A DNA stretch of 64,000 nt from a virus. Lineage: Duplodnaviria > Heunggongvirae > Uroviricota > Caudoviricetes. The number at the start of each line of letters is the position of its first letter. Positions within the stretch are counted from its first letter, which is position 1. The notes below the pieces were generated by a model. That model had not been told where the DNA came from, ran no database searches, and saw only the letters and a program-made list of their open reading frames with translations. The stretch lies in IMG/VR virus record IMGVR_UViG_3300021310_000004; one strand, given 5' to 3'. Of the stretch, positions 10,577-57,048 are shown piece by piece. The position numbers were made by a program, and so were the translations under genes.

Positions 10577-10610
10577 AATACGTATCATTGCACTACAATT
10601 TGTGACAAAA
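10577..10610 (-). promoter_or_regulatory. class A bipartite motif (TAATACGTATCATTG-N8-TTTGTGACAAAA) upstream of phosphoesterase gene
   Basis: 1 of 11 near-identical copies; functional sense is minus (TTTTGTCACAAA-N8-CAATGATACGTATTA). Confidence 0.5.
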
Positions 10611-10673
10611 TAAATATGATTTGTGTATTCGAAAACAAAAAAATAGCAACGTTTATTTACGCTGCTAAGTAAC

Positions 10674-10745
10674 AGAGGCAACAGGACTCGAACCTGTAAC
10701 GTTGAGGATCAAAGCCTCATGTTCTACCAATTGAACTATACCGCA
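10674..10745 (-). tRNA. tRNA-Gln(TTG)-like (two acceptor-stem mismatches)
   Basis: T-arm ACAGGTTCGAGTCCTGT; anticodon loop CTTTGAT. Confidence 0.45.
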
Positions 10746-10749
10746 TTAA

Positions 10750-10838
10750 CGCTCGCTACAGGACTCGAACCTGTGGACCAAATTTCTTTGATCAACTGAT
10801 TAGCAATCAGCCGCATTCACCAACTCTGCCAAACGAGC
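10750..10838 (-). tRNA. tRNA-Ser(GCT), type II
   Basis: cloverleaf hand-folded; loop TTGCTAA; long variable arm. Confidence 0.5.
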
Positions 10839-10842
10839 ATAG

Positions 10843-10916
10843 CAGGGGTAGAACGATTCGAACGCTCATAGAATCTTTCGATTCACGGTTTTGGAGACCG
10901 CTGTTTTACCATTAAA
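10843..10916 (-). tRNA. tRNA with CCA anticodon (Trp) and unusually extended variable region
   Basis: acceptor AGGGGTG/TACCCCT, loop CTCCAAA, 16-nt hairpin variable region. Confidence 0.4.
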
Positions 10917-10932
10917 CTACACCCCTATATAG

Positions 10933-11012
10933 AGATCCAGGTGGGATTTGAACCCACAACAATGTCATCCCAGATTTGCAGTCTGGAGCCTTACCAGTTT
11001 GGCTACTGGATC
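10933..11012 (-). tRNA. tRNA-Cys(GCA)
   Basis: perfect acceptor GATCCAG/CTGGATC; loop CTGCAAA. Confidence 0.5.
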
Positions 11013-11017
11013 ATAAA

Positions 11018-11099
11018 CGCCGTACACAGGATTCGAACCTGCAACCCATTACTGGGCCATGATTTTCAAGACCACTTCCTCACCACCCGGACATACGGC
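11018..11099 (-). tRNA. tRNA-Ser(TGA), type II
   Basis: loop CTTGAAA; variable hairpin CCCAGTAATGGG. Confidence 0.5.
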
Positions 11100-11103
11100 A
11101 TAT

Positions 11104-11250
11104 GAAATGAAACGCTGTGTCTGGGACTTGATTCTCAGCTACCGCTTCGGTCGGTGCTTCTACTTCGTAGAGGTGTCCACTGGACACCCGCACCCCAGAA
11201 GCCATCGCTGGCACCGGCTTTCGAGGTCGGTGTGTTTACCATATTCCACC
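11104..11250 (-). ncRNA. GC-rich structured spacer (stacked perfect hairpins GGTGTCCagtGGACACC, CTTCTACttcgTAGAAG) between tRNAs
   Basis: hairpins read directly; no ORF (11059..11397 ORF rejected). Confidence 0.3.
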
Positions 11251-11264
11251 AACACAGCTTATAG

Positions 11265-12135: not shown

Positions 12136-12136
12136 A

Positions 12137-13333: not shown

Positions 13334-13370
13334 TAATACGTATCATTGCGATGCGTTTTGTGACAAAATG
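13334..13370 (-). promoter_or_regulatory. class A bipartite motif upstream of tRNA block
   Basis: TAATACGTATCATTG-N8-TTTTGTGACAAAA. Confidence 0.5.
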
Positions 13371-13440
13371 CGCCTGACAGGATTCGAACCTGCGATATAC
13401 CGGTTAAAAGCCGGTTGCCATACCACTTGGCTACAGACGC
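13369..13440 (-). tRNA. tRNA-Lys(TTT)
   Basis: loop CTTTTAA. Confidence 0.6.
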
Positions 13441-15963: not shown

Positions 15964-16007
15964 AACAATAATTCCTTTCTTTATTTCTTATTACAATTAT
16001 AATACGT

Positions 16008-16034
16008 ATCATTTGGACACGTTTTGTGACAAAC
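16008..16034 (-). promoter_or_regulatory. class A bipartite motif
   Basis: ATAATACGTATCATTTGG-N-GTTTTGTGACAAAC. Confidence 0.45.
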
Positions 16035-16273
16035 TTTTTTTAAATTAACAAAAAAGAAGTGCTTATCTCATATCCAATCAAAACTACGACCCGGCGGTAG
16101 ATACTGCATATGCAGCTCCCCTGTGGTGTACTATACTTTTGATTAGATATCGGACAGGCACTTCCTTTATCTATATAGCATGATATACCACGAACATATT
16201 TTTGTCAACACCTATTTTTTATTTTTTTAATGTGTACCATGTAAACGAGCAATCACAAATTCTTCGTTGCTGA

Positions 16274-19535: not shown

Positions 19536-20324
19536 CTACGGCCGCATATAGGACGGCATTAATCTAAGTTTATGTAGATTTGCACGATGCTTATGCTCGA
19601 TCAAATCAACTAGGTCCTCACTTATCGGGCATCTAGTTTCAGACTTAGCCTCGGATTCCTTCCAGATGATGTACGCATCTAGGTCATCATACGTGAATCC
19701 AAGATTGTCTTCATCGGTCTTTCCACACAGCCCGTCAGATGGGACCTTATGAACCAGATCCGCTGGAAGCTCAAGGTAATCACCAATGGCCCGGATGTCC
19801 GATACCAAAAAGTCCTGTAATACAGCAATATCACCTGCTGCATCGCCATACTTTGTGGAATATCCCACATAATCCTCGGACCGGTTGCAGGTATTTACTA
19901 CAAAGGCCGGAACATTAAAGCTCTGTGCTACTGCATACAATGTTGTCATACGGATACGAGGTGCAAGATTAATGATCTGCTGCTCGGTACGATTTACACC
20001 GGATACCTTTAGGGCCTTCTGGAAGGCCTTGTATGGGTCTAAAATGTTAACGGTAACACGTTCTATGCCTAACATATCACAAACTCGCATTGAATCGGAA
20101 ATATCACTTTGAATACCGTTCGGCATTAAAACACCAACTACACGTTCTTTTCCAATCGCTCTAACCAACAGAGCTGCAGCTACAGTCGAATCCTTACCAC
20201 CAGAGATGCCAATTACTGCCTTGGAATCCTCGGAGAACTGGTTGAACCAGTTCCTCAAGAAACCAATTAACTTCGGAGTTACATTTGTTACGTCGATACT
20301 CGTCATCACAAACCTCCTACTCAT
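19536..20324 (-). CDS. nadE: NH3-dependent NAD+ synthetase
   Basis: PP-loop GISGGKDSTVAAAL; family-typical length. Confidence 0.8.
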   Translation of the reverse strand: MSRRFVMTSIDVTNVTPKLIGFLRNWFNQFSEDSKAVIGISGGKDSTVAAALLVRAIGKERVVGVLMPNGIQSDISDSMRVCDMLGIERVTVNILDPYKAFQKALKVSGVNRTEQQIINLAPRIRMTTLYAVAQSFNVPAFVVNTCNRSEDYVGYSTKYGDAAGDIAVLQDFLVSDIRAIGDYLELPADLVHKVPSDGLCGKTDEDNLGFTYDDLDAYIIWKESEAKSETRCPISEDLVDLIEHKHRANLHKLRLMPSYMRP

Positions 20325-21525
20325 GATCCAAGCGCCACTTTAATGTACGCTGCAGATAATCTACATACTCAGCATCCTTGCACATGCACTTGCCCGGTGT
20401 ATCGCTGATTTTAGCTACCGGATGGCCATTACACTCGGTCGTCTTCATTACGATATTAAGTGCCGGTTCCTTCGTATCATTACTGATATAAGTTCCAATA
20501 CCAAATGCTACATTGATGCGGCTGTTGAAGTGATAGAACAATGCAGAAGCACGATCAAAATCCAAGCTATCACTGAACAATAAGGTCTTAGTCTTAGGAT
20601 CTACACCAAGAGCTTCGTAATGCTTAATCATCTTCTCGCCCCACTCATACGGATCACCAGAGTCGTGACGAACACCTGAGAATAAGGTCGCGAATGTAAG
20701 CTGAAAATCCTTTAAGAATACATCTGTGGTTACGGTATCGGTCAATGCGATACCATTCATAACACTGTACTCTTTAACCCATGCATCGAGTGCAAACCAG
20801 TTGGAGTATGCAGCATTGTGCTTATTATCACCCTGACCTACACACATGATATACTCATGAGCCATGGTTCCAACCGGTGTAATGCCGAACTTCTTTGCAA
20901 GGTACACATTGGACGTTCCAATGAAGTTAGAACTTACATTCTTGGTTGCTTCAATCAGTGCCTTAATAGCAAGTTCCTGTGCTTCTGCAGACAATCTACG
21001 ACGAAGTCCGAACTCAGAGAATGTACCAAGATACAAGGATTGAGCCTTCACGCGGTCACACTTTGCGGCCAAACGTTCCTTAAAGGAATCCAGCAGCTCA
21101 TCATAATCAAAGCCCATTCTAAAGTAGACCTCATTTACGATTGCAAGAGTTGGAATCTCATACATGGAACTGTTCAGCCAGGTACTCTTTGCCTCGATAG
21201 ACAAGCCACATTCTGCATCGGCACTAATCTCAAAATCCTCATATCGTGGATGCCACAAACGAAGATAATCGATGTAGTCCGGCTTCAGCCACTTGATCTT
21301 ACGCAGGTAACCCAATTCGTCCTCTGTGAACACGAGCGCACAATATGCACGAATCTGTTCCTTAATTTCCTCTACCATGTCCTTGGTAAAATGAACGTCC
21401 TTGTTACGGCACTTGAATGTCCAAGTGGTTGTGTATCCAGGGAACTGATGGTAAATTACCTGTCCCATGGAAAACTTGTATAAATCGGTTTCTAACAATG
21501 AATTGATAATCTGGTTACATTTCAT
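20317..21525 (-). CDS. pncB: nicotinate phosphoribosyltransferase
   Basis: colinear PncB motifs: LLETDLYKFSM, GIALTD, GVRHDSGDP, KTLLFSD, AFGIGT, ECNGHPVAKISDTPGK. Confidence 0.85.
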   Translation of the reverse strand: MKCNQIINSLLETDLYKFSMGQVIYHQFPGYTTTWTFKCRNKDVHFTKDMVEEIKEQIRAYCALVFTEDELGYLRKIKWLKPDYIDYLRLWHPRYEDFEISADAECGLSIEAKSTWLNSSMYEIPTLAIVNEVYFRMGFDYDELLDSFKERLAAKCDRVKAQSLYLGTFSEFGLRRRLSAEAQELAIKALIEATKNVSSNFIGTSNVYLAKKFGITPVGTMAHEYIMCVGQGDNKHNAAYSNWFALDAWVKEYSVMNGIALTDTVTTDVFLKDFQLTFATLFSGVRHDSGDPYEWGEKMIKHYEALGVDPKTKTLLFSDSLDFDRASALFYHFNSRINVAFGIGTYISNDTKEPALNIVMKTTECNGHPVAKISDTPGKCMCKDAEYVDYLQRTLKWRLDHE

Positions 21526-21581
21526 AATATTTATTCTCCTTTCTTATGTACCATTTTTATTTATCGATGTTAAATATGGTA

Positions 21582-22109
21582 CTATTTACGTCGGCGCCAA
21601 TTTTCATGTGCTTCTAAGAAATCCGGAGCAATCATATCGCGGTACTGATCCGTGTTCTCTCGAATCATGGTACCGGATACTTGAATCTTACTTCTATCCA
21701 ATAATACGAAGTTATGGTTCGGATAAACCTGCTGCAACTTCTCGATATAAGAGGCTTCGCCCGTGTACCAGGTATATTCTTTGGATTCGTCATTCGGATC
21801 TAGCCAAGCGTTACGAAAGAATTCTTTCCCCCAGATAGACCAAGCATCTACGGAAAATGTACCTGTTAATCCGATTTCATGATCGTCAACAATAGTAATA
21901 AAGACGTTCTTATCGTCATGATATCGTCTTAACATTAACTTCCATCGACCTTCAAACGGTAGGTACTCTTGTCCTCGGTCGCTATCATATCCGCATACAC
22001 CGATAACGATTCGATCATTCTCGTTCTTAGCTCTTTCAATCATTGATAAGTGGCCCTTGTGCAACGGGATAAAACACCCGAAGCACAGACCAATTCTTTC
22101 CTTACTCAT
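21582..22109 (-). CDS. nicotinamide/nicotinate-mononucleotide adenylyltransferase (NadM/NadR-type)
   Basis: GCFIPLHKGHL nucleotidyltransferase motif. Confidence 0.7.
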   Translation of the reverse strand: MSKERIGLCFGCFIPLHKGHLSMIERAKNENDRIVIGVCGYDSDRGQEYLPFEGRWKLMLRRYHDDKNVFITIVDDHEIGLTGTFSVDAWSIWGKEFFRNAWLDPNDESKEYTWYTGEASYIEKLQQVYPNHNFVLLDRSKIQVSGTMIRENTDQYRDMIAPDFLEAHENWRRRK

Positions 22110-22632
22110 TTACCACCTCAATATGACATGCCTTCATTGCCTGTAATGCCGTATTATGGCTCTCCTTGGTTACGCCGGCGCAACCTGCTGCATCTACGAT
22201 AATTCTCGTATTCGGTCTTGCTGCCTTGGCCAGCATGACATTGGAAATGACACAGATATCGGTACATACACCAACAAACTCGATAGACTCAAGTTCATAT
22301 GCGTAGTCAGCGAAGAAATCGCACAATTCCTTGGATCCGAATGTTTCCTTGTCAAACAAGTAATCTTCATCCACGTACGGCTTTAACTCATCAACGATCT
22401 CAAATCCTTCGCTTCCCTCAATACAATGCGGTACTGGAAGGTGCTGGCCTTCAATGGTATTCATGTAATCATCCTGGTGCATATCTCTTGTGAAGATAAT
22501 CAAATCTCCATCTTCAGTAGCCTGTTCCAGCTTCTTCTTAATGTACGGAATCACGGCAATCGCGTCCTCATTACGAAGCGCTCCGGTTGTGAAATCATTC
22601 TGCATATCAATTACTACTAACACTTTACTCAT
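22102..22632 (-). CDS. pncA: isochorismatase-family hydrolase, probable nicotinamidase
   Basis: VVIDMQNDF, catalytic Cys in VCTDICV; position within NAD salvage block. Confidence 0.65.
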   Translation of the reverse strand: MSKVLVVIDMQNDFTTGALRNEDAIAVIPYIKKKLEQATEDGDLIIFTRDMHQDDYMNTIEGQHLPVPHCIEGSEGFEIVDELKPYVDEDYLFDKETFGSKELCDFFADYAYELESIEFVGVCTDICVISNVMLAKAARPNTRIIVDAAGCAGVTKESHNTALQAMKACHIEVVNE

Positions 22633-22634
22633 CC

Positions 22635-23456
22635 CTAATTTCCTCCTACATATGTAAATTCAGTTGATTGTCTACCACTCGCCAAATCGGACTTTTTTAC
22701 GTTTCCGGTTTCGACGATTTTATGTTCTACGAGCCGCTTTAATGATGCCTTATAAATATCCTGGCCCATTACGGCCCGATATGTTGCTCGAAGTTCCGCC
22801 ATTGTAAATGTGGCCGGCACCAAACAGAACATGTTATCCGAATAATCAAATCCGGCTCGAAGCTTTTTCATCGCTTCAATTATTATTTCCACATGATCAA
22901 ACGCCAATTTCTCGTCCGATACTAATGTGGGAATGTAATTCTGGTACGTAAGTACGGAATTCTTAAACGACTTTTCCTTCAAACTGTACTTAATAGTGAC
23001 GTTCTTCTCATCGTTTCTTAAAATAAGCTCCGTATCTTTGAACACCAGATCAAACCATGCAGCATCTGCAGCATCGTCTTGACCAGTAACGTCTTCAAGA
23101 TTCGATACCAGTGCCATATAAGCGATACTCATTACCCACATACGAGGGTCACGTCCAGGTTTTGTGAATGTATAAATCTGATCCAAATAAGCTTTCTTTA
23201 AACCGGTTTCCTCATACAGCTCTCTTTGTGCCGCCTGAAACGCTGTTTCATTCTCTTCAATGAATCCGCCCGGTAGTGCCCAGCAATTCATATACGGGTG
23301 ATTTCCGCGTCTTATTAACAGGATTTTCAAATTGGTATAACCTGGAGCCATTCCAAGTACCAAGATATCTGTCGTTACGGATGGACGCTTATAATCGCCC
23401 GGATTATATTGCTCTAAAAACTCGGATTCTGTTAATCCATCTTTGTTACGAAGCAT
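22635..23456 (-). CDS. NUDIX hydrolase (ADP-ribose/NAD-metabolite pyrophosphatase-like)
   Basis: Nudix box GGFIEENETAFQAAQRELYEETG. Confidence 0.7.
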   Translation of the reverse strand: MLRNKDGLTESEFLEQYNPGDYKRPSVTTDILVLGMAPGYTNLKILLIRRGNHPYMNCWALPGGFIEENETAFQAAQRELYEETGLKKAYLDQIYTFTKPGRDPRMWVMSIAYMALVSNLEDVTGQDDAADAAWFDLVFKDTELILRNDEKNVTIKYSLKEKSFKNSVLTYQNYIPTLVSDEKLAFDHVEIIIEAMKKLRAGFDYSDNMFCLVPATFTMAELRATYRAVMGQDIYKASLKRLVEHKIVETGNVKKSDLASGRQSTEFTYVGGN

Positions 23457-23543: not shown

Positions 23544-24146
23544 TTAATTTTCAGTGAGTTTTTCATCATAATCGTCCAGCCATTCAATTATACTATCAGC
23601 AGCTTTATATAAATCGAATGCTCTTTTCTCCTTTTTCTTTTCTTCCGACATATCGTCTTTAAAATTATCGCAATACACTAAACTGTAACACGCTTTCAGT
23701 TCAGGAAAGATCTCATTTACACGAACACCATGCCGTACATCCTTAAAAACATTCGATTTTAGAAACTCCGTCATATCGTCCATGGTATGTATTCCGTTCT
23801 CTTCGAGTTCGTCCTTAGATAATGGAATGTACACAGCTGCTCTAAGAATACTTAGTATGATTATATGTTTTTTCACAAAATCAATAATACATATCAAAAC
23901 AACAAACAGCCAAGCAATCGCCAAATCGACACAAAGTCCTGCGATAATATAGTCCACAAAACTCGGTTTATGAACCGACATATTAAAAAGTTTGGATACA
24001 ACTGAGGAAAAAATGAAATATCCTAATCTACCTGACAACGGCAGGGTGAATATCATTGCTGCGACTACAATTACGGTAATTGCGCTCGATATACTATCGA
24101 GTCTCATGATATATTTCCAAATACTTGTTTTCTTCTTTAAGTTCAT
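23544..24146 (-). CDS. membrane protein (hypothetical), start refined to MNLKKK
   Basis: AAAAGGAG RBS; TM helices; class A motif just upstream. Confidence 0.45.
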   Translation of the reverse strand: MNLKKKTSIWKYIMRLDSISSAITVIVVAAMIFTLPLSGRLGYFIFSSVVSKLFNMSVHKPSFVDYIIAGLCVDLAIAWLFVVLICIIDFVKKHIIILSILRAAVYIPLSKDELEENGIHTMDDMTEFLKSNVFKDVRHGVRVNEIFPELKACYSLVYCDNFKDDMSEEKKKEKRAFDLYKAADSIIEWLDDYDEKLTEN

Positions 24147-24183: not shown

Positions 24184-24224
24184 ATAATACGTATCATTGT
24201 TCCTGGTTATGTGACAAAAAAAGA
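24184..24224 (-). promoter_or_regulatory. class A bipartite motif
   Basis: TAATACGTATCATTG-N9-TTATGTGACAAAAA. Confidence 0.45.
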
Positions 24225-37348: not shown

Positions 37349-37384
37349 CTAATACGTATCATTGAGAGCCATTTTGTGACAAAC
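37349..37384 (-). promoter_or_regulatory. class A bipartite motif upstream of tRNA block
   Basis: TAATACGTATCATTG-N8-TTTTGTGACAAAC. Confidence 0.5.
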
Positions 37385-38090: not shown

Positions 38091-38119
38091 TTTTTAATCC
38101 TCCAAATCGAATTTATATA

Positions 38120-38167
38120 TAAAATACGTATCATTCGACCGGCATTTGTGACAAAATAAATATGACC
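38120..38167 (-). promoter_or_regulatory. class A bipartite motif
   Basis: AAATACGTATCATTCG-N8-TTTGTGACAAAATAAATATG. Confidence 0.45.
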
Positions 38168-40622: not shown

Positions 40623-40656
40623 TTCAATCTCCTCCTCTTCGAATTCTCACATTAGT

Positions 40657-40694
40657 AATACGTATCAATGGACTTTATTTTGTGACAAAAAAAA
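40657..40694 (-). promoter_or_regulatory. class A bipartite motif
   Basis: TAATACGTATCAATGG-N-TTTTGTGACAAAAAAAAG. Confidence 0.45.
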
Positions 40695-42656: not shown

Positions 42657-42837
42657 ATATGTATCCTTGAAACTCCCTTTGGCCTCCGGCCCTGATCCAG
42701 AACTAAGGATACAATACACGGTGCTGATCAATGACGAATAGAATGATACAGGCTTGTTACCGTATATAGTTTTTCGTATTGGCTTACTGAAGCAAGATTC
42801 GTCTTTTATCCAGTGCTTCATGCAATACTAGGAAGAA

Positions 42838-42925
42838 TGGACTCAGTGGGATTCGGACCCACATTCGCGAGTGTTCGCTCTTTCATCTTAAACACTTAAG
42901 ATGGCTTTTCCTTTTAAGCTATGAA
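42838..42925 (-). ncRNA. tRNA-like element with 8-bp/4-nt-loop hairpin replacing anticodon arm
   Basis: T-arm GTGGGTCCGAATCCCAC; ATCTTAAGtgttTTAAGAT. Confidence 0.3.
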
Positions 42926-43464
42926 TCCATGTGCGGAACCTACCCACTTCTCCGCTGTGCGAATCATCAGGTCAACCAGGTCAACACTGTCCAACAACCA
43001 CCGCGCGGTATCCGCAGAACCAACAGTCCACGGGCCGCCTCGCACCCCATTTCAAATCGGCCACTAAAGCAGGACCTCTCTGTAAATAAACCCCGGCTTT
43101 ATCGAAATATCGAATGGTGCCGGAAACCATATATAGGCACGTTCACAATAAGGATTCGCCATGGCTCGATTCGTTACTAATTGCTTCAACAGCTGACGTC
43201 TACACCGATACAAAGCAACGTTTACACCTTCTCTCAACGAAGGCTAGAAGATCTACCACATATGAACAAAAGCCTAAATAGATGCCTTTGTCTCGAACAT
43301 ATCTCTTTAAAGCTACGTCTTAAAGAGAGCAGCCTATACCTGCCGACACCTACTGGTATGATACCTATCTATGCGTCCATCTCGTACGACGCAGGCATCA
43401 TACATACCACCTGATCTTATTTGTTTGTGCAGTGCTATACTGCTCGGAGTCCTGCTCCGCATAG

Positions 43465-44642: not shown

Positions 44643-44985
44643 GCGAAAATGGATAAGGGAGGAATCGAACCTCCGACCATCAGGTACTATTATTGACCTA
44701 AGTGCTACCAACTTACATCTATCTTATCCATGTTGACCGAAAGTGCCCAACGGTCGTTGCGTTTCGTGTGGTTGCAGCCCACTACTTCGCTTTCCCTCAG
44801 CCAGGCTCTGCAAAGCCCCAATAGGACGACACTATCACGTTACTTGTAATACGTACTCCCTAGAGCCGCCTTTTGGGACATGGTGGTGGGCTAATCCACG
44901 TAACATATTACAAGCTTTTTAGGTGCTAACCTCGGACAACTTTTACGTCATATCCGTTTGACAGCGTGGAAAGAGGGGGATTCGA
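44643..44985 (-). ncRNA. block B copy 2 (tRNA-like element + about 225-nt conserved RNA)
   Basis: see copy 1. Confidence 0.4.
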
Positions 44986-45085
44986 ACCCACATGCCGTCT
45001 CCTATTACTATTGTTGCAACAATAGTAATATTCATCGACGTTGACTTGCCATATCGTCCATCTTTCCATGTCCGGCTTTTTGATA
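44986..45085 (-). ncRNA. tRNA-like element with perfect 20-nt palindromic extra hairpin (ACTATTGTTGCAACAATAGT)
   Basis: acceptor GGAAAGA/TCTTTCC, T-arm GGGTTCGAATCCC. Confidence 0.3.
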
Positions 45086-45252: not shown

Positions 45253-45291
45253 TAATACGTATCATTCGATGCCGTTTTGTGACAAAATAAT
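45253..45291 (-). promoter_or_regulatory. class A bipartite motif driving the ncRNA island
   Basis: TAATACGTATCATTCG-N6-TTTTGTGACAAAATAAT. Confidence 0.45.
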
Positions 45292-46178: not shown

Positions 46179-46925
46179 AAAAACCTCCATTCTAGAATAG
46201 CTCTTAGGTCAGCCGGCCACACATTTTAACCGCAAAAATACTGTCGGTTGGTATTTGTTTCCAAAAACCGGAACGTGGGGAATTGAACCCCATTCCAAGG
46301 ACATGCAACCTTGAAAAGTACCGCTCGCCAGGCAGACGTACGGAGAAAGGAGTTATAATACCCGTACATCAACGAAACTATCACAAACATCGCGATTTCT
46401 CGCGAGTGGACTAGACGGGAGTCGAACCCGTGTCCGAAATAGTTACTAATTAAGAGTCTTAACGCTGTTGGGAGCGAAGAAAATCTCGCCTGATCCACCA
46501 CCTGTTTTCGTACCGCCAAAGCAGGAAAGATAATTGTGGTTTCGTCTTTTGAACCTTACAGAGTACCAAACTCCAATCTATCTGTAAGACAGGCGTTTTT
46601 CATGTCGAAGCTATCTAGTTATTAAACTAGGCAGCAACTGCCATAGGACGTACATTAGATCTTGCGTCTAATTTTAAGTGATCACCGTAACGTGGTATAT
46701 CAATTCCGAGCGAACTCTTAATATTCACTACCCCGTCGAAACCATTACTAGCCCAGAGGAGGACCGCCTATTACGGGTAAGTTCCAACAAAGGAACTTAG
46801 GTTGACTTTCACATTGTCAAAACAAAACCAAGCTCTTTCGAGCCAAATCATAGACGCAGGAAACGAACCTGCCGTCTCGAATCGATATATTCGGTGATAA
46901 TTCCGTTCCACATCGATTACAATAT

Positions 46926-46965
46926 TAATACGTATCATTGGACGTCATTTTGTGACAAAAAATCA
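46926..46965 (-). promoter_or_regulatory. class A bipartite motif
   Basis: TAATACGTATCATTGG-N7-TTTTGTGACAAAAAATC. Confidence 0.45.
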
Positions 46966-51567: not shown

Positions 51568-51756
51568 TGTTCTTACCTTTCTTTACTCTCTGTTTTTGTT
51601 ACCTCTTTTCGATCCGTATCTTTGGTCTTTTGAATTTTGCATAATCTATCCGTACAATCCTCGCAAAATTGATAAATTACGCGTTCCTTAATAATCGGAC
51701 AATATTTACTCATACCTATCCTCTATTTTATCACACGGAAAGTCCTTTACTAAACA

Positions 51757-52026
51757 CTATACACGCCTTATTCCGTTGCCGTGCAATAATTTCCAAATCA
51801 TTATTGGCATCATGATCTTACGGGCTGATATGAGAACAATCTCATTCGGGTCTAGCCATCGAATGTGGCCAGCTAAAATTGTTCCGCTCTTAAATCTAGT
51901 CAATCTACCGTTTTCATTCCACTTCCATTTGCATTCATCAGATATAAAACTTGAGGCGAATCCGCCCTTAAATACTACTGTTATCTCGTATTTCTTGCGA
52001 TTTCCTCCAAAGATGCGGGGCCGCAT
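51757..52026 (-). CDS. hypothetical protein
   Basis: ORF coupled to ParM-like gene. Confidence 0.4.
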   Translation of the reverse strand: MRPRIFGGNRKKYEITVVFKGGFASSFISDECKWKWNENGRLTRFKSGTILAGHIRWLDPNEIVLISARKIMMPIMIWKLLHGNGIRRV

Positions 52027-53105
52027 TAAGCGGCACCCTCTTCTTCATTACCTTCATTGTCTTCGTCCTCTTCAGGCTCCTGAATCAGCTTAATTTTAAG
52101 CGTATCCGAACGGCCGCACATTAGAGCCAAAAATCCGATTGCATTAACCATATTCGGGTTCTCCGGCATAGCAGTATTCTCGCCGAAAGCTTCAATCAAA
52201 TCATCACCGATTAAGCTTACTCCGCCACCGATAATAACGAGCTGCATAACATCTAAGGACCAGTTCTTAGTACGAATCTCTTCGATCATGTCTCGAACGT
52301 AATTCTCTAAGTACCGCTTAATAATCTCTGCGGAACGAGCCTCTTTTTCCGGGTTTGGATTTCGGAATTTCAGCTTACGCGGGCCAGAAATTGCTTCGGC
52401 AGCCTTCCGCTTCGTAATCGTTGTCTGGAGTTCGTTCGATAATTCCTGAGCCAATCCAGATACAAGGAAATTTACGCCCTTTGTGGTGGTTCTTCTAGAT
52501 GTTGGATCGATATCTCCGCCACTGTAAATCGTCATATTCACATTCAAGTGGCCGATATCAAGAACACCAACTGCCTCGGAATAATCAATTCCGGGCGTAA
52601 AAATAGCTCCGATGGTCTCCGGATATACATAATGTTGCACGATCTTGAAGGTCTTCTCCATAATGTCACCGGATGCTGCACGATATGTAACGGTATGCTC
52701 TCCAAGTGGCAAGATGTAGTCACGATAATTATTACGTTCATCAACCACTAAATAAGAATCAACCGGGATTCCAACACTGGCTACTACTTCATCAGTGTCA
52801 TTCTCTGAACACTCCTTCGCAATCGCGAGCATGGTACATAACTTATGGATCAATGTCTTCTTGGAAGAATCAAGCTCTGCTTCGATAGACGCGCACTTAC
52901 CAACCTTATAGACGCCACCTTCGAATCCAACAATATAGGTACCATTACCAGGTTCATCATCATCGAACGTCGCGTTTTCCTCATATGCTGTTCTAAAAGC
53001 ATGCGTGAAATATGGAACCTCGTTACTGTTTTCCAAAAAAGCCGGATTTAAGACCGCGCTTTTGGTGAATGACTTACCAGAATCTACTGCGATATATCTC
53101 TTCAT
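52026..53105 (-). CDS. actin-like ATPase, ParM/StbA-like
   Basis: N-terminal IAVDSGKSFTK phosphate-1 motif, later DIGHLNVN and IIGGG motifs. Confidence 0.55.
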   Translation of the reverse strand: MKRYIAVDSGKSFTKSAVLNPAFLENSNEVPYFTHAFRTAYEENATFDDDEPGNGTYIVGFEGGVYKVGKCASIEAELDSSKKTLIHKLCTMLAIAKECSENDTDEVVASVGIPVDSYLVVDERNNYRDYILPLGEHTVTYRAASGDIMEKTFKIVQHYVYPETIGAIFTPGIDYSEAVGVLDIGHLNVNMTIYSGGDIDPTSRRTTTKGVNFLVSGLAQELSNELQTTITKRKAAEAISGPRKLKFRNPNPEKEARSAEIIKRYLENYVRDMIEEIRTKNWSLDVMQLVIIGGGVSLIGDDLIEAFGENTAMPENPNMVNAIGFLALMCGRSDTLKIKLIQEPEEDEDNEGNEEEGAA

Positions 53106-53904: not shown

Positions 53905-53948
53905 AATTTAATCTCCCTTCGGATCATAATCATTCATTCTTACATTAC

Positions 53949-53989
53949 TAATACGTATCATTCGGCTCCATTTTGTGACAAAAAAAAAG
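53949..53989 (-). promoter_or_regulatory. class A bipartite motif
   Basis: TAATACGTATCATTCGG-N5-TTTTGTGACAAAAAAAAAG. Confidence 0.45.
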
Positions 53990-54026
53990 AAAGAACCTAA
54001 AAATAGGTTCTCTCTTTGTGCGCCAA

Positions 54027-55355
54027 TTACTTTTCGAACGGGTAATCAGCATAGCAATGCGGGCAACGGACAGTATGTGGTCCATGTGACAAGAATGTAA
54101 TATCCTCATCCCAATTTTTTCCGCAATTGAAGCATCCAATATGCTTTACCTGGTGAACGACGTCCTTATGAAACTGCTGTGTTGCAATATCAACGTCATA
54201 CAATTTGCGGTACAGCTCAGTTCCGGTGTCATCGGAGACATTCAAGTACATCTTAGTATACTGCTGCTTATACACATCCTTATCTACCGCATCCTGCATG
54301 CTATTAACAATGATTCGATACTGAGCGTTGCAGGTCTCATTCATGTATCGAATTGCGTCCTTATACTTCGTGCGCAAACCTTCTAAGAGCTCTGCGTTTT
54401 TCGCCTCTTCCTCGGCTGTCAATTCGGCCTTCGCAACCAGGTTCGGCTTCGGCTTCGATTGTTCCTTTGGCTTTGGAATGATTGCATCAGAGTCTCCATC
54501 GTTAAGAGTCTCAACGGCAGCTTCGATCACCGGCTCGGCAGCAGGTTCGTTATGTGGTACGTCCTTTTCTTCGACAACCGGAACCTTATCTCCGGAGCCG
54601 ATTAATGCCTCGTTAGACATGTTTTCCTTGTCGTTAGTAACCTTACCGCGACTATCCTTAACAGAATCCTTGAGAGGGGCGATATCTCCCTTTAAGGTTC
54701 CCTGCAGAACCTCCTGGCGATTTCGTCTCATTTCCTTCTTAGCCTTATCTAACTCAGAGCTCTTAGCAACTCTTTCCTGGTTGTCCTGCGGCTTGAACTG
54801 CTTATTTGCTCTCATTTCGGACTTCAAATTCTGGCTAGAAGACAACTGCAATCTATCATGTACCATGCCGGTAATGATTCGAATGTCCTGGTCCGTAATA
54901 GTATTATCATCACAACGCTCGTAATGATCGTACAATACATCCATAACAACCTGGTCTTCGATTGAAGCTAACGCATCCTTCATATCCGGAGTGTAATCGC
55001 TGAACATATCTTCTGAAACACCGTCTAATCCAAGCTTCGCGAAGAACTCATTCCAGTCGAAGATACTTAACGCATCTACGTCAATCACTTCATGGTTGCA
55101 ATCTAACCAGTCAACATTACCACGCTCTATATCGCTTGGTACGAAGTTAACTACGCCGCTCTTAAAGTCAGCCATCTTCTTCATTACGTTAAAGTAAGAT
55201 CCCAGAATCTGGCTCTCCTTCTTTGCTACGAACTCTACGTTCGTCTTATGTCCCTTTAATACCACGACCGGTACAGGCACATTACCATTTCTAAGTAATG
55301 CCATCTTGTTAATCACGTCGAGTTTCTGGTTGTTCCATTTATAGATATTTTCCAT
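54027..55355 (-). CDS. large hypothetical protein with C-terminal zinc ribbon
   Basis: CFNCGKNWDED...CPHCYADY. Confidence 0.5.
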   Translation of the reverse strand: MENIYKWNNQKLDVINKMALLRNGNVPVPVVVLKGHKTNVEFVAKKESQILGSYFNVMKKMADFKSGVVNFVPSDIERGNVDWLDCNHEVIDVDALSIFDWNEFFAKLGLDGVSEDMFSDYTPDMKDALASIEDQVVMDVLYDHYERCDDNTITDQDIRIITGMVHDRLQLSSSQNLKSEMRANKQFKPQDNQERVAKSSELDKAKKEMRRNRQEVLQGTLKGDIAPLKDSVKDSRGKVTNDKENMSNEALIGSGDKVPVVEEKDVPHNEPAAEPVIEAAVETLNDGDSDAIIPKPKEQSKPKPNLVAKAELTAEEEAKNAELLEGLRTKYKDAIRYMNETCNAQYRIIVNSMQDAVDKDVYKQQYTKMYLNVSDDTGTELYRKLYDVDIATQQFHKDVVHQVKHIGCFNCGKNWDEDITFLSHGPHTVRCPHCYADYPFEK

Positions 55356-55399
55356 GTAAATTATCCTTTCGTTCTGTAACTTAAATTTTTTATGGTTAA

Positions 55400-55633
55400 T
55401 TATGCAACGGTATTTGATTGTACCGGTGTTTTTAACATTGCAGACAATCTCCGACCTTCCGATGAGGGAAATGCTGTAGTTATATTGGCCTTTAGCGGAA
55501 TCGCCTCCGTACCAATATGAATAGTTCCATCTCGTTCGGATTTAATGCGTAACGCATAATTGTCGCCGTCACTGGATTCGATTTCTGTGATTCGAAGCCC
55601 ATCCGTGTCCACTAATATGGTCTCTATAATCAT
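55400..55633 (-). CDS. small hypothetical protein
   Basis: ORF. Confidence 0.4.
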   Translation of the reverse strand: MIIETILVDTDGLRITEIESSDGDNYALRIKSERDGTIHIGTEAIPLKANITTAFPSSEGRRLSAMLKTPVQSNTVA

Positions 55634-56376
55634 GATTCCGCCTCCGCTTCTGCTTCCGCAAGAATATTGTTGAACTCTGTAAACTGCAGCAAGAAATTGT
55701 CGCGTCCGCTGCCAAATTCAACATCGGTCGGTAACGACTGGTTCAAGTAATCAAGTGGCGACTGGAAGAATTTACATGCCGCGCCAAGCTTATGCTTCGA
55801 TAACCAATACTTCGCTTTATTTGAGCCGAAGAATTCATATACCTCTTCCATGTTGTGAAATTTGATGTCGCAATCACTGATCAATACGTGATTCAGTAAG
55901 AAGCGGGCCTTATCCCTTGCATTCTCAATGTTGTTCTCATCAAATACCACATAGTGGCATCGACCGTTATCTAACGCACGATTGTATTCCATGATCCACA
56001 ATGTCTGCTCATTATAGTAGCGACGAAGCTGCGGATAACATAAAATTCCGATATAGAAAATGCCGGAACGCTTATCCTTGTATTCCGGTGGGAACTCCAG
56101 CGCATTAAGGGCCTTTGTTAGATTCAACTGCTTGATATGCTCTTCTGTCAGGTAATTAACCACATCCATCGGGCTCCATTCCAGGACATTTTCAAATACG
56201 TACCGGAACAGGGCGCATGCAACTTCGTTCTTCTGCTCTGTTGTGCCCTGGAAGAATGCGGTCGGAAGCATCTTATTACTGTTGTTGCGGATCTGTTCTT
56301 CCCAGACATGAATCGTTGATTTGATGACATCTTGAATGCCACCAATCATATTTACTCCAACTGCTGAATTATCCAT
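55630..56376 (-). CDS. hypothetical protein (start refined to MDNSAVG)
   Basis: AGGAGGATTAAAGAA-ATG. Confidence 0.45.
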   Translation of the reverse strand: MDNSAVGVNMIGGIQDVIKSTIHVWEEQIRNNSNKMLPTAFFQGTTEQKNEVACALFRYVFENVLEWSPMDVVNYLTEEHIKQLNLTKALNALEFPPEYKDKRSGIFYIGILCYPQLRRYYNEQTLWIMEYNRALDNGRCHYVVFDENNIENARDKARFLLNHVLISDCDIKFHNMEEVYEFFGSNKAKYWLSKHKLGAACKFFQSPLDYLNQSLPTDVEFGSGRDNFLLQFTEFNNILAEAEAEAES

Positions 56377-56380
56377 TTCT

Positions 56381-56692
56381 TTAATCCTCCTTGGACTCAG
56401 AATCCAACTCGTCAACCAATTCGACGAGCTCATATAATAAATCATCTATTAATTGCGCAGCCTCGCTTGACTCCAATGCATCAGTATTCTCAAATTCCTT
56501 TGGCTGAGCATCTTCTAATCGATACCAAGGTCTGGTGGACAAGTACATCAAGTATGGTACGTACTTATCGCCACCATTTCTCATGCGCTCAATATCTGCC
56601 GCAGTAATACCGTAATCAATAGATACCACTGGATTTGGCAGATTCTTAAATTCTTCAATCTTTGCATCGTAGCTTTCAAACGTCATTTTCAT
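56381..56692 (-). CDS. hypothetical acidic protein
   Basis: ORF preceded by about 300-nt leader. Confidence 0.45.
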   Translation of the reverse strand: MKMTFESYDAKIEEFKNLPNPVVSIDYGITAADIERMRNGGDKYVPYLMYLSTRPWYRLEDAQPKEFENTDALESSEAAQLIDDLLYELVELVDELDSESKED

Positions 56693-56699
56693 AAATTGA

Positions 56700-57010
56700 C
56701 CTCCGTGATTCGTCGGTCAATAACGACGTGTCGCTACAATACATGGTTTACTTACGCTTGAAACTTCCTTTTAAGCATCAAAATAAAGCCGGGACATTAT
56801 TGGCCGACATACTTAATAAGTTCCAAGTTTACCGGCACGTTGTAGCCGTACCGTAACAAAGGATTTCTCCTTCTCGCGTAAACCTAAGACACCTCATTTT
56901 ATTGAATCGTGCTCCCTTATAACAACAAAGGGCGTTCAACAAAACGAGTATGTTCACTGTATGAAGTTGTATTATGGAATCCATCTACTATACAGACCAA
57001 TTCCGTTCAA
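56700..57010 (-). ncRNA. long structured 5' leader / candidate ncRNA downstream of class A copy 11
   Basis: about 300 nt GC-richer, ORF-free between promoter motif and CDS. Confidence 0.25.
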
Positions 57011-57013
57011 ATA

Positions 57014-57048
57014 TAATACGTATCATTAGGTTCTGTTTTGTGACAAAC
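57014..57048 (-). promoter_or_regulatory. class A bipartite motif
   Basis: TAATACGTATCATTAGG-N5-TTTTGTGACAAAC. Confidence 0.45.

What the first reader, a model, noticed from the sequence alone, without database searches (positions are those of the whole stretch)
10577..57048. Class A bipartite motif (11 copies): TAATACGTATCATTG-N5-10-TTTTGTGACAAAA
Near-identical copies occur at 10577, 13334, 16008, 24184, 37349, 38120, 40657, 45253, 46926, 53949 and 57014, always in the same orientation. Each lies 20-50 nt upstream (in minus sense: TTTTGTCACAAAA-N-CAATGATACGTATTA) of a minus-strand gene start or a tRNA/ncRNA block. The fixed spacing of two conserved boxes fits a dedicated promoter class, likely one temporal class recognised by a phage sigma factor or modified RNAP, rather than sigma-A. 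It preferentially drives the tRNA/ncRNA islands and small early-looking genes.
Basis: seen in the sequence. Interest (0 to 1): 0.6.

Follow-up and report, generated by a model that had tools for sequence, protein, structure and literature searches.

The report
Phage-specific bipartite promoter family
A 35-base two-box DNA signal repeated 11 times in this window (14 times in the 78-kb element) is most likely a dedicated promoter class of an uncultured, tRNA-rich phage-like element of gut or rumen Firmicutes, which is a well-known kind of feature whose reading factor is still unidentified.

Summary
Eleven copies of (T/G)TTTGTCACAAAA-N7-nAATGATACGTATTA (minus-strand sense) lie at the stated places. 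The box spacing is fixed at 7 nt, not 5-10. There are no degenerate copies: family members score 63-83 bits and the next best site scores -9.5. All sites are intergenic and co-directional with the genes. Three more copies lie just outside the window, before replication genes.

The family behaves like a promoter class:
- Eight of 14 sites follow a terminator hairpin.
- One site sits in a divergent intergenic region.
- One fills the gap between two tRNAs.
- Five of six RNA units (tRNA arrays, tmRNA) are headed by it.
- In orthologous sites of related contigs the boxes are unchanged (1/78 differences) while the spacer diverges (11/24).

Relatives at 65% helicase identity keep TGTCACAAA and C(G/A)TATTA, one base closer together. 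A 42% relative has a different bipartite motif at the same kinds of place. A second motif, CCATATTTA, stays constant throughout.

The sites do not fit sigma-A, although canonical TTGACA/TATAAT promoters exist in the element. The -35 box equals the ECF41-type TGTCACA. No sigma or RNA polymerase gene was found in the 78 kb. The ECF sigma of relatives travels with a different motif.

Verdict: a new member of a known kind, reading factor unknown, moderate interest.

The parts
10576..10610 (-). Class A site 1. It lies 19 nt before the ATG (10556) of a 251-aa metallophosphatase gene. A class B CATATTTA abuts box 1, and a terminator hairpin at 10667-10644 lies upstream.
13334..13368 (-). Class A site 2, inside the large tRNA array. 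Box 1 starts directly after tRNA-Lys(ttt) (13369-13440), and tRNA-Lys(ctt) starts 18 nt after the motif. The 53-nt gap leaves no room for another promoter.
16000..16034 (-). Class A site 3, at the head of the unit made of a 58-aa ORF plus the 25-tRNA array (15675-10673). That unit ends at the terminator 10667-10644.
24185..24219 (-). Class A site 4. The terminator T tract runs into box 1. The site lies 38 nt before the ATG of a 200-aa gene (23544-24146).
37350..37384 (-). Class A site 5, directly after the stop codon of gene 37393-37908. It heads a sub-threshold tRNA-like gene (37098-37187), then tRNA-Thr and tRNA-Gln.
38122..38156 (-). Class A site 6. It lies 31 nt before the ATG of a 52-aa gene, and a class B CATATTTA abuts box 1. 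In the relative L002 an extra gene is inserted right after this motif.
40656..40690 (-). Class A site 7. A terminator-like hairpin (-20.9 kcal/mol) with a T tract lies directly upstream. The site is 33 nt before the ATG of a 60-aa gene.
45253..45287 (-). Class A site 8, at the head of the second tRNA island (tRNA-like 44967-45067, tRNA-Tyr 44650-44738, and onward to about 41335).
46926..46960 (-). Class A site 9, 171 nt upstream of the tmRNA gene (46404-46754). That gene is followed by a terminator at 46405-46390.
53949..53983 (-). Class A site 10. The terminator 54017-53986 runs into box 1. The site is 44 nt before the ATG of a 130-aa gene.
57014..57048 (-). Class A site 11. The terminator 57096-57074 lies upstream. 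A 320-nt leader or ncRNA follows before gene 56381-56692. The orthologous site in L005 keeps the boxes at 75% overall identity.

Best explanation
Class A is a dedicated promoter class of this phage-like element. Read on the gene (minus) strand it has three parts: a -35-type box TGTCACA(AAA); a -10-type box whose conserved core is CGTATT(A), with a lineage-specific extension AATGATA upstream of it; and a start point about 7 nt further on, at the conserved T40-G41.

The two box centres are about 22.5 bp apart. This is the geometry of promoters read by a bacterial multisubunit RNA polymerase carrying a sigma-70-family specificity subunit. The boxes do not fit the host housekeeping sigma. The motif is replaced by another bipartite motif in a more distant relative. 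I therefore infer that the reading factor is an alternative, lineage-specific one, most likely encoded by the element itself: an ECF-like or otherwise divergent sigma, or an activator that re-targets host polymerase.

The class switches on tRNA arrays, the tmRNA, leader and ncRNA units, small genes and replication genes as one co-regulated set.

Shown:
- the sites exist and form a discrete family;
- their placement and orientation;
- the footprint of selection on the boxes;
- the lack of a sigma-A fit.

Inferred:
- that transcription starts there;
- the start point;
- the identity and origin of the factor;
- the timing.
For: 1. Discreteness and number: 11 copies in the window and 3 more in the adjacent 14 kb. 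Sites score 63-83 bits against -9.5 for the next best.

2. All 14 sites are intergenic and co-directional with the downstream genes (chance about 1e-11).

3. Eight of 14 lie directly after a terminator hairpin plus T tract, so incoming transcription is expected to have stopped before the motif and a new start is needed.

4. L020:3699 lies in a divergent intergenic region between a minus-strand SSB operon and a plus-strand unit. A promoter must exist there, and class A is the only conserved element on that side.

5. Site 13334 fills a 53-nt gap between two tRNAs.

6. At site 10576 the Shine-Dalgarno sequence begins 8 nt after the motif. This limits any start point to about position 42 or earlier and agrees with a start at G41.

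7. Five of 6 RNA-first units are headed by class A, against 6 of 30 protein-first units (p = 0.006).

8. Footprint in orthologous pairs (window against L002 and L005): boxes 1/78 differences, spacer 11/24 (p = 1.5e-7).

9. Relatives with 65% RecD2 identity carry TGTCACAAA(A/T)-N..-C(G/A)TATTA at orthologous places, before the RNase_T and RecD2 genes, with the boxes 1 bp closer together. The two palindromes of our version are lost there, so recognition is asymmetric.

10. A 42% relative has another bipartite motif, CTTCGTTTT-N8/9-TGGnCCTAATAATA, 8 copies in 22 kb, before the small ORF-RNase_T-RecD2 gene block and before tRNAs. The second motif, CCATATTTA, is unchanged there.

11. No sigma-70-type hexamer pair occurs at any site, although two 11/12 consensus promoters exist in the window.

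12. The -35 box is identical to the ECF41-specific TGTCACA, and the -10 box begins CGT as in ECF promoters, which start at a G (PMC3426412).

13. The motif is absent from 185,579 species-representative bacterial and archaeal genomes, apart from one short contig binned with a Lachnospiraceae MAG and chance hits inside ORFs.
Against: - There are no transcript data of any kind.
- No sigma factor, RNA polymerase or recognisable transcription factor was found in the 78 kb that could be read. The rest of the genome could not be reached.
- The ECF sigma encoded by relatives travels with a different, classical ECF motif, AAAC(C/T)-N17-CGTCTTATAA. It is therefore probably not the class A factor.
- The spacer between TGTCACA and CGT is 18 nt (17 in relatives), against 16 +/- 1 in ECF41 promoters.
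- The 49 bits of conservation are far more than a sigma needs. This points to a second constraint (a bound regulator) or to homogenisation by exchange between copies. One such exchange is visible: L002 carries the spacer of site 45253 at the 37350 position.
- The element has an integrase, so a genome-wide repressor system is plausible.
Confidence: 0.6

Rival explanations
1. Regulator-dependent host promoter. Host RNA polymerase with its ordinary sigma-A uses a weak -10-like element in or next to the TATTA box. One or both conserved boxes are binding sites of an element-encoded activator or appropriator, in the manner of T4 MotA/AsiA middle promoters. Alternatively they bind both an activator and a repressor, so that the 35 nt is a composite of promoter and operator.
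For: - Conservation (49 bits) greatly exceeds what is needed to find the sites (13.4 bits), as expected when two proteins read one site.
- In our lineage both boxes are near-palindromes (TTTTGT-C-ACAAAA and ATACGTAT; seen directly).
- An A/T-rich hexamer TAnnAT-like follows the motif in about half of the sites.
- No sigma gene was found in 78 kb.
Against: - The candidate -10 hexamers lack the conserved last T or have G at the -11 position in all 14 copies.
- No -35 hexamer lies at 16-18 bp.
- At site 10576 a start point downstream of a TAnnAT hexamer at positions 34-39 would remove the Shine-Dalgarno sequence.
- The palindromes are not kept in relatives that keep the motif.
Confidence: 0.2
2. 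Operator or stoperator sites of an immunity repressor. As in mycobacteriophage L5 and other Cluster A phages, a repressor binds many asymmetric sites spread over the prophage. Their orientation is tied to the direction of transcription, and they silence initiation and elongation. Promoter activity, if any, would belong to neighbouring sequence.
For: - The family is discrete, asymmetric, multi-copy, lies in short intergenic spaces and is strictly co-oriented with transcription. L5-type sites behave in the same way (PMC9283540).
- That repressor is a monomer with two DNA-binding domains, which could read two boxes.
- The element carries an integrase next to a 1-kb region of repeated sites, and in some contigs bacterial genes follow an IS copy beyond that end of the element.
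- Sites 37350 and 46926 follow a stop codon without a terminator, and 13334 lies inside an operon.
Against: - Eight of 14 sites sit directly behind a terminator, where little or no elongating polymerase should remain to stop.
- At several sites there is no room for a separate promoter: 13334, 24185, 53949, and L020:3699 in a divergent region.
- The motif is 35 bp with -35/-10 geometry and a conserved start-like TG, not a 13-mer.
- No repressor candidate was recognised. The only protein gene with a consensus sigma-A promoter (1792-2313) has no detectable DNA-binding domain.
Confidence: 0.1
3. Recombination module. The conserved 35-mer, often fused to a terminator, mainly serves as a patch of homology at which gene cassettes are swapped, like the terminator/promoter PeSL cassettes of T4-like phages. 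This does not exclude promoter function.
For: - In L002 an extra gene is inserted exactly between the 38122-type motif and the downstream gene.
- In L004 a terminator plus class A motif replaces the 89-aa gene 51757-52026.
- L002's copy at the 37350 position carries the spacer of window site 45253, which indicates exchange between copies.
- Eight of 14 sites are terminator-motif composites. PeSLs are described in PMC4122927.
Against: - A role in shuffling does not explain selection on every box position together with free drift of the spacer.
- It does not explain the strict orientation or the association with RNA operons.
- Only three events were seen.
Confidence: 0.05

Closest known systems
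ECF41-type promoters (TGTCACA-n16-CGTC; Wecke et al. 2012, PMC3426412), and ECF promoters in general, such as sigma-W (TGAAAC-N16-CGTATA, the latter from memory)
   Same: The -35 heptamer TGTCACA is identical; B. licheniformis PydfG even has TGTCACAAA. The -10 box begins CGT(A). The likely start is a G a few bases downstream. The layout is bipartite with a non-conserved spacer.
   Different: The spacer is 18 nt (17 in relatives) instead of 16 +/- 1. Conservation extends over 35 nt. There are 14 or more targets, including tRNA operons and replication genes, rather than a single COE operon. No ECF41 sigma (with the fused SnoaL-like domain) was found. The ECF sigma of relatives is SigW-like with a membrane-spanning extension and is linked to another motif.
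Phage-specific promoter classes read by phage-encoded sigma factors (from memory: Bacillus phage SPO1 gp28, AGGAGA-N17/18-TTTNTTT, and gp33/34, CGTTAGA-N18/19-GATATT)
   Same: Several promoter classes occur side by side in one large Firmicutes phage. Each is a conserved bipartite motif unlike sigma-A, co-oriented with its genes. Canonical sigma-A promoters are present for a few units.
   Different: The sequences are unrelated for class A. The second motif here, CATATT(TA), recalls GATATT. No gp28- or gp34-like protein was detected. The temporal order is unknown.
T7-group promoters for single-subunit RNA polymerases
   Same: Near-identical copies with information content far above need. The + strand of box 2 even begins TAATACG, like the T7 promoter.
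   Different: T7-type promoters are contiguous 23-mers, whereas this motif has a free 7-8-nt spacer. The TAATACG resemblance is on the strand that would transcribe antisense into terminators. No single-subunit polymerase gene was seen.
Stoperators and operators of Cluster A mycobacteriophage repressors (PMC9283540, PMC6550527)
   Same: Many asymmetric sites in short intergenic spaces, with orientation tied to transcription and consensus varying between phage lineages.
   Different: Those sites are 13-mers, against a 35-bp bipartite motif here. Most sites here follow terminators or stand where a promoter is required. No repressor was identified.
PeSL composite terminator/promoter cassettes of T4-like phages (PMC2839356, PMC4122927)
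   Same: A terminator hairpin is fused to a conserved promoter. Indels between close relatives are bounded by the motif.
   Different: PeSL promoters are host sigma-70 early promoters. Here the promoter part is not sigma-A-like.

Membership tests
ECF41-type promoter | -35 element TGTCACA | tested here: met
   All 14 sites of the element contain TGTCACA. The consensus is from PMC3426412.
ECF41-type promoter | -10 element CGTC (or TGTT) separated from the -35 element by 16 +/- 1 nt | tested here: not met
   The -10 is CGTA in 14/14 sites, but the spacer is 18 nt. In relatives L023 and L028 it is 17 nt, and the -10 is CGTA or CATA.
ECF41-type promoter | Cognate ECF41 sigma with a fused C-terminal regulatory domain, encoded next to its target | tested here: not met
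   An HMM of ECF sigmas finds nothing in the window, L020, L012 or L013, and Pfam and PHROGs find no sigma. The sigma of relatives scores best against SigW models and SigW structures. It travels with AAAC(C/T)-N17-CGTCTTATAA.
Sigma-70-family bipartite promoter (general) | Two conserved boxes about 23 bp apart centre to centre, with a non-conserved spacer and small tolerance in spacing | tested here: met
   The centres are 22.5 bp apart. The spacer is free (11/24 differences in orthologues). Spacing is one base shorter in relatives.
Sigma-70-family bipartite promoter (general) | Transcripts start 5-9 nt downstream of the -10 box | not testable with these tools
   There is only indirect support: T40 (11/11) and G41 (10/11) are conserved, and the Shine-Dalgarno sequence at site 10576 limits the start point.
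Host sigma-A promoter | TTGACA-like and TATAAT-like hexamers 16-18 bp apart, with A at -11 and T at -7 | tested here: not met
   No class A site is reported by the scan. With CGTATT as the hexamer, -11 is G in 14/14 sites.
Phage promoter class with an element-encoded specificity factor | Multi-copy, intergenic, co-oriented, present where a promoter is needed, and lineage-specific | tested here: met
Phage promoter class with an element-encoded specificity factor | Cognate factor gene in the same genome | tested here: inconclusive
   The factor was not found in the 78 kb. The remainder of the genome could not be reached because the contig ends at IS-type repeats.
T7-type single-subunit RNAP promoter | Contiguous conserved ~23-mer directing transcription downstream, with an RNAP gene in the genome | tested here: not met
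   The motif is bipartite with a variable spacer. The TAATACG resemblance is on the antisense strand. No such gene was seen.
L5-type stoperator/operator | Asymmetric sites, many copies, orientation tied to transcription | tested here: met
   14/14 sites are co-oriented. The definition is from PMC9283540.
L5-type stoperator/operator | Sites lie within transcribed intergenic spaces where elongation is blocked, and a repressor is encoded by the phage | tested here: inconclusive
   Eight of 14 sites follow terminators, while 3-4 lie within operons. No repressor was recognised.
PeSL-type terminator/promoter cassette | Terminator stem-loop fused to a conserved promoter, with indels between relatives bounded by it | tested here: met
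   There are 8/14 terminator-motif composites, and indels at the motif in L002 and L004. The promoter part is not a sigma-70 early promoter, so this is an analogy, not membership.

The most novel reading that the evidence does not exclude
Class A is read by a specificity factor with no detectable similarity to known sigma factors or phage RNA polymerases. This factor would be encoded in the unread part of the genome or among the many unannotated proteins. It would co-evolve with the motif: TGTCACA/CGTATTA in this lineage and CTTCGTTTT/TGGnCCTAATAATA in a 42% relative. It would run a regulon made largely of tRNA operons, a tmRNA and ncRNAs. The 49 bits of conservation would encode a second, overlapping layer of control, such as a stoperator-like repressor of a tRNA-rich prophage.
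Probability: 0.2. Interest if true: 0.6.

Novelty: new member of a known kind. Interest (0 to 1): 0.4.

Why it matters
Large uncultured phages of gut and rumen Firmicutes are known almost only from sequence, and their gene-expression programmes are unknown.

This family gives a precise, testable handle. It consists of 14 near-identical sites that mark one co-regulated set: tRNA arrays, tmRNA, ncRNA leaders and replication genes. Within the same element there are also a second promoter-like class (CCATATTTA), a few canonical sigma-A promoters and, in relatives, an ECF sigma with its own motif.

The pattern across relatives is that one class is replaced while the other stays constant. This predicts a lineage-specific factor that could be fished out with the 35-mer.

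The motif can also be used to recognise fragments of this phage lineage in metagenomes, to delimit transcription units, and to test whether promoter-terminator cassettes drive gene shuffling outside the T4-like phages.

It does not overturn any concept, because phage-specific promoter classes are well established.

Tried and rejected
1. Exact-pattern scan of IMG/VR: 0 hits. Protein-based scan of IMG/VR with the large NlpC/P60 protein: none. Megablast of 15 kb against INPHARED phages: nothing relevant. tblastn of the RecD2 helicase against phages: only matches of 34% identity or less. There is therefore no cultured or catalogued close relative.

2. Hits of the pattern in L003, L007 and L016 (a Lentimicrobiaceae-type bacterium) and in L018 and L019 (Psychrobacter). 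For L003, L007 and L016, which share one sequence, reading showed the match lies inside a protein-coding region of an unrelated bacterium, so it is chance. The Psychrobacter hits were dismissed on organism and context without being read.

3. Full-text search for the box sequences: only unrelated primer matches.

4. Sigma-A reading: rejected.

5. T7-like reading of the + strand (TAATACG...): rejected on orientation, bipartite structure and the lack of a polymerase gene.

6. N4-type hairpin promoter or an RNA-level element: the motif has no single-strand structure beyond shuffled controls (z between -0.9 and +0.4). The short palindromes are not kept in relatives.

7. Linking class A to the ECF sigma of relatives. 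This looked attractive because in L023 the sigma gene lies behind a class A variant and the -35 box equals ECF41. However, the sigma family is consistently accompanied by AAAC(C/T)-N17-CGTCTTATAA, in bacteria as well as in phage relatives. I therefore do not assign class A to it.

8. Search for a sigma in the element: Pfam, PHROGs and a purpose-built ECF HMM found none.

9. Walking the genome beyond 78 kb. The contig ends on both sides at repeated mobile sequences: an IS3 copy, and a RelA_SpoT-DUF6718-UPF0236 unit that also occurs in several bacterial contexts.

10. Bacteroidetes-type promoter (TTTG / TAnnTTTG): rejected. The spacing is wrong, and the strong GGAGG ribosome-binding sites point to Firmicutes.

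Full report
**1. Check of the observation**

Both boxes are strongly over-represented. TAATACGTATCATTG with up to 3 mismatches gives 17 matches against 3.3 expected. TTTTGTGACAAAA with up to 2 mismatches gives 26 strand-matches against 4.0 expected.

The boxes co-occur 11 times, with + strand starts at 10576, 13334, 16000, 24185, 37350, 38122, 40656, 45253, 46926, 53949 and 57014. All copies have the same orientation, and the start-to-start distance is exactly 22 nt. The spacer is therefore a fixed N7, not N5-10.

Almost all genes of the window are on the minus strand. On that strand the motif reads (T/G)TTTGTCACAAAA-N7-nAATGATACGTATTA. I number it from T1 to A35. Conservation continues downstream: A38, T40 (11/11) and G41 (10/11).

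A weight matrix built from the 11 copies scores them 63-83 bits. The next best position on either strand scores -9.5 bits. The family is discrete, with no degenerate members.

**2. Setting**

- The window has 41% G+C.
- It carries 35 tRNA genes called by ARAGORN, plus further tRNA hits from Rfam.
- It carries a tmRNA (46404-46754) and a ROOL RNA (34861-35444, 251 bits).
- It carries NAD-salvage genes, HNH endonucleases, an anti-repressor-like Bro-N protein, a ParM/MreB-like actin and a tyrosine integrase.
- Ribosome-binding sites are strong GGAGG-type.
- The same sequence occurs on many ENA and JGI metagenome contigs.

One 78,149-bp contig (ERZ27247044 k141_69945) covers the window and a further 14 kb to the right (L020). 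It ends on both sides at repeated mobile sequences.

A 3.9-kb contig with the motif is binned with a Lachnospiraceae MAG. There is no close relative in IMG/VR or among sequenced phages. No virion genes lie in the 78 kb. 'Phage' is therefore likely, given the PHROG hits, tRNA arrays and gene style, but it is not proven here.

**3. More copies and what they precede**

L020 holds three further copies:
- before a 63-aa plus 408-aa plus AAA-ATPase unit;
- before an RNase_T-type exonuclease;
- before a RecD2-type helicase.

In the window the sites precede:
- the 58-aa ORF plus 25-tRNA array (16000), with a second copy inside that array (13334);
- the tRNA-like/tRNA-Thr/tRNA-Gln group (37350);
- the second tRNA island (45253);
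- the tmRNA (46926);
- a 320-nt leader (57014);
- five protein genes (10576, 24185, 38122, 40656, 53949).

Five of six RNA-first units are headed by class A, against 6 of 30 protein-first units (Fisher p = 0.006).

**4. Evidence that the sites are promoters**

(a) All 14 sites are intergenic and point the same way as the downstream genes.

(b) Eight of 14 lie directly behind a terminator hairpin. The T tract often runs into box 1 (24185, 40656, 53949, L020:7503, L020:8457; also 10576, 38122, 57014). Transcription arriving from upstream is expected to have stopped, and the downstream unit needs a new start.

(c) L020:3699 lies in a divergent intergenic region, next to an SSB operon that runs the other way. 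A promoter must exist on that side, and class A is the only conserved element there.

(d) Site 13334 occupies 35 of the 53 nt between two tRNAs.

(e) At site 10576 the Shine-Dalgarno sequence starts 8 nt after A35. Any start point must therefore lie at about position 42 or earlier, which fits the conserved T40-G41.

(f) Orthologous sites in related contigs keep the boxes while the spacer drifts: 1/78 differences in the boxes against 11/24 in the spacer (p = 1.5e-7). This holds in flanks that are 75-96% identical.

(g) The centres of the two boxes are 22.5 bp apart, close to the 23 bp between -35 and -10 hexamer centres of sigma-70-family promoters.

**5. Which polymerase form?**

No class A site has a sigma-70-type hexamer pair, and such pairs are under-represented in the window as a whole.

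The element does contain two near-perfect host-type promoters:
- TTGACA-17-TATAGT with an extended TG at 2398-2370, before gene 1792-2313;
- TTGACA-17-TATCAT at 16208-16180, before an apparent small RNA.

By my own reading, more host-type promoters lie in L020:1208-2446. The host sigma-A is therefore conventional, and class A is something else.

If the -10 hexamer is CGTATT (positions 29-34), the start falls on G41. The -35 hexamer (GTCACA) then sits 18 bp upstream, or 17 bp in relatives.

A second, commoner motif ('class B') is TTT(a/t)GTTTCC(A/G)AAAA-N7-CCATATTTA(A). It has about 25 intergenic copies and includes both arms of two divergent regions. In about half of its copies the hexamer CATATT is followed 7-8 nt later by a G in YGTAA (read directly). 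This is the same geometry as CGTATT-N6-G41. The parallel is an inference from alignment by eye and is not statistically strong.

**6. Relatives**

I used the RecD2 helicase as a guide.

Relatives at 65% identity (L023-25 and L028, from the NCBI metagenome assembly GCA_024712465.1 and from Logan assemblies of sequencing runs) show two patterns:
- L023 carries TGTCACAAAAT-N7-TTG(A/G)C(A/G)C(G/A)TATTAA at orthologous places, before RNase_T and before RecD2. It also carries this variant before an AAA gene and before a 61-aa ORF plus a 438-aa ECF-type sigma.
- L028 carries TGTCACAAA-N11-GCACGTATTA.

What is kept is TGTCACAAA and C(G/A)TATTA, one base closer together than in our element. What is lost is the left arm of box 1 and the ATACGTAT palindrome. 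Recognition is therefore asymmetric, and the palindromes of our version are not essential.

A relative at 42% identity (L036/L037, contigs of 158 and 136 kb) has the same kinds of genes (ALP actin, NS_2 endonuclease, RNase_T, RecD2, NAD salvage).
- It keeps class B unchanged (ACCATATTTAT).
- It has no class A.
- Instead, 8 copies of CTTCGTTTT-N8/9-tTGGnCCTAATAATA lie on the gene strand in 22 kb. These stand, for example, before the small ORF-RNase_T-RecD2 gene block and directly before tRNA-Glu and tRNA-Met.

One promoter-like class is thus constant, and the other is replaced as a whole between lineages while keeping its bipartite form and its kinds of target. This is what is expected if class A is read by a lineage-specific factor that co-evolves with its sites.

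**7. The sigma factor of the relatives**

The 438-576-aa proteins of L023 and L028 are ECF sigmas. They pass only the general ECF superfamily model. Among named sigma factors the strongest, though sub-cutoff, similarity is to SigW models and SigW structures. They have a membrane-spanning C-terminal extension.

Homologues also occur in bacterial chromosomes (L026) and on short contigs of unknown origin (L034/35). There, and in phage L023 and in two close relatives of our element (L006, L017), a classical ECF motif is found: AAAC(C/T)-N17-(GT)CGTCTTATAA. It lies next to the sigma gene in the bacterial cases. That motif, not class A, is the likely target of this sigma.

In L023 the sigma gene lies behind a class A variant, so class A would act earlier in the cascade. 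No homologue of this sigma exists in our 78 kb, and no other sigma or polymerase was detected. The class A factor remains unknown.

**8. Comparison with known systems**

The -35 box equals the ECF41-specific TGTCACA. ECF41 promoters are TGTCACA-n16(+/-1)-CGTC and start at a G (PMC3426412). Class A is TGTCACA-n18-CGTA, or n17 in relatives.

This is a resemblance in architecture, not membership. The spacer criterion fails in our element, and no ECF41 sigma is present.

The overall picture recalls SPO1-type cascades (from memory): a few sigma-A promoters, two element-specific classes, and in relatives an ECF class.

The single-strand hairpin (N4-type) and RNA-element readings fail, because the motif folds no better than shuffles. 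The T7-type reading fails on orientation and on the free spacer.

**9. Rivals that remain**

The information content (49 bits over 35 nt for 14 sites, against 13.4 bits needed) is much more than a sigma requires. Two explanations fit.

First, a second protein may read the same sites. This could be an activator or appropriator, or an immunity repressor of the L5 stoperator type. The L5 repressor binds many asymmetric, transcription-oriented sites as a two-domain monomer (PMC9283540). The integrase and its neighbouring 1-kb array of repeated 20-mers make a temperate life style plausible.

Second, the copies may be homogenised by exchange. L002 carries the spacer of window site 45253 (CGGCATCG) at the 37350 position. 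Indels between close relatives begin exactly at the motif in L002 and L004. This parallels the terminator/promoter PeSL cassettes of T4-like phages (PMC4122927).

Neither explanation removes the need for a promoter at these places. Both may be true together with the main explanation.

**10. Verdict**

The interpretation as a dedicated, non-sigma-A promoter class is the best-supported reading. I give about 0.8 that the sites are promoters, and about 0.6 for the full statement including an alternative specificity factor. The claimed reader of the motif (a phage sigma or a modified RNAP) and the temporal class are unproven.

This is a new member of a well-known kind of feature in an uncharacterised phage-like lineage. 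Interest is moderate (0.4). It is useful as an entry point to the regulatory programme of a tRNA-rich element, and notable for the replacement of the motif between lineages.

Noticed in passing
window, about 25 intergenic copies, e.g. 59782, 48280, 34068, 33064, 32455, 30749, 28528, 25981, 6271, 1730, 783 (minus strand); 17216, 17521, 59812 (plus strand): There is a second, commoner promoter-like motif ('class B'): TTT(a/t)GTTTCC(A/G)AAAA-N7-CCATATTTA(A), often followed by cGTAAC. It usually sits just after a terminator and 25-45 nt before a highly uniform ribosome-binding region, ATGAAAGGAGAATAA. It occupies both arms of two divergent intergenic regions (17186/17216 and 59782/59812). It is unchanged in relatives down to 42% helicase identity. 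At 10618 and 38164 it abuts class A.
   Followed up: partly
window 34861-35444 (-): A full-length ROOL RNA (Rfam RF03087, 251 bits, E = 5e-56), preceded by a class B motif at 35594 and followed by three tRNAs (34156-34622).
   Followed up: no
window 2370-2398 (-) and 16180-16208 (-); L020:1208-2446: Near-consensus host sigma-A promoters. TTGACA-17-TATAGT with an extended TG lies before the unannotated 173-aa gene 1792-2313, next to the integrase region. TTGACA-17-TATCAT lies before about 150 nt of non-coding sequence that ends in a T tract just upstream of class A site 16000 (a possible small RNA). Three more such promoters, with structured non-coding RNA-like sequence, lie in a 1.2-kb gene-free stretch of L020.
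   Followed up: partly
window 2314-3360, next to the integrase gene 3464-4537 (+): A 1-kb stretch without genes holding four or more copies of a 20-22-nt repeat (CTATTGGGACTTATATTGCGAT and variants) in both orientations, plus a second 16-nt repeat family. These may be arm-type recombinase binding sites of an attachment region, or iterons.
   Followed up: partly
L023:15021-16337, L028:10001-11731; motif at L023:2770, L017 (- strand) 1201, L006 (- strand) 1397, L026:7417, L034:1612: Relatives of the element encode a 438-576-aa SigW-like ECF sigma with a membrane-spanning C-terminal extension. A classical ECF motif, AAAC(C/T)-N17-(GT)CGTCTTATAA, accompanies this sigma family in bacterial chromosomes, on short contigs of unknown origin and in the phage relatives. 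In L017 and L006 it lies between a class A site and the gene (tandem promoters).
   Followed up: partly
window 41982-42281 and 44645-44944: A 300-nt direct duplication (97% identical) that contains long tRNA genes. ARAGORN calls them tRNA-Cys (GCA, 41986-42076) and tRNA-Tyr (GTA, 44650-44738), which is an apparent anticodon switch after duplication. Two further repeat pairs (81 and 66 nt) lie nearby.
   Followed up: partly
window 42837-42929, 42304-42427, 44967-45067, 37098-37187 (all -): Unusual tRNA-like genes: one that ARAGORN reports with a 4-base anticodon (gtgt), one 124-nt tRNA hit (a possible intron), and two weak tRNA/tRNA-Sec-like hits directly downstream of class A sites.
   Followed up: no
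window 38091-38122 against L002; window 51743-52084 against L004; L002 position equivalent to 37350: Gene-cassette differences between close relatives begin exactly at class A motifs. An extra gene is present in L002. A terminator plus class A motif replaces an 89-aa gene in L004. One copy carries the spacer of another site (45253), which suggests recombination between promoter copies.
   Followed up: partly
window 19536-23456 (-): A compact NAD-salvage cluster: NAD synthase, NAPRTase, a cytidylyltransferase-like (NMNAT-type) protein, an isochorismatase (PncA-type) and a NUDIX/NrtR-like protein. It is conserved in the 42% relative L036.
   Followed up: no
left of window position 1 (L012, L014 against L013) and right end of L020 (L029-L031): The 78-kb contig ends at an IS3-family copy on one side. 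On the other side it ends at a RelA_SpoT-like small alarmone synthetase + DUF6718 + UPF0236 transposase unit that also occurs in several unrelated bacterial contexts. The true ends of the element, and whether it is integrated, remain unresolved.
   Followed up: partly
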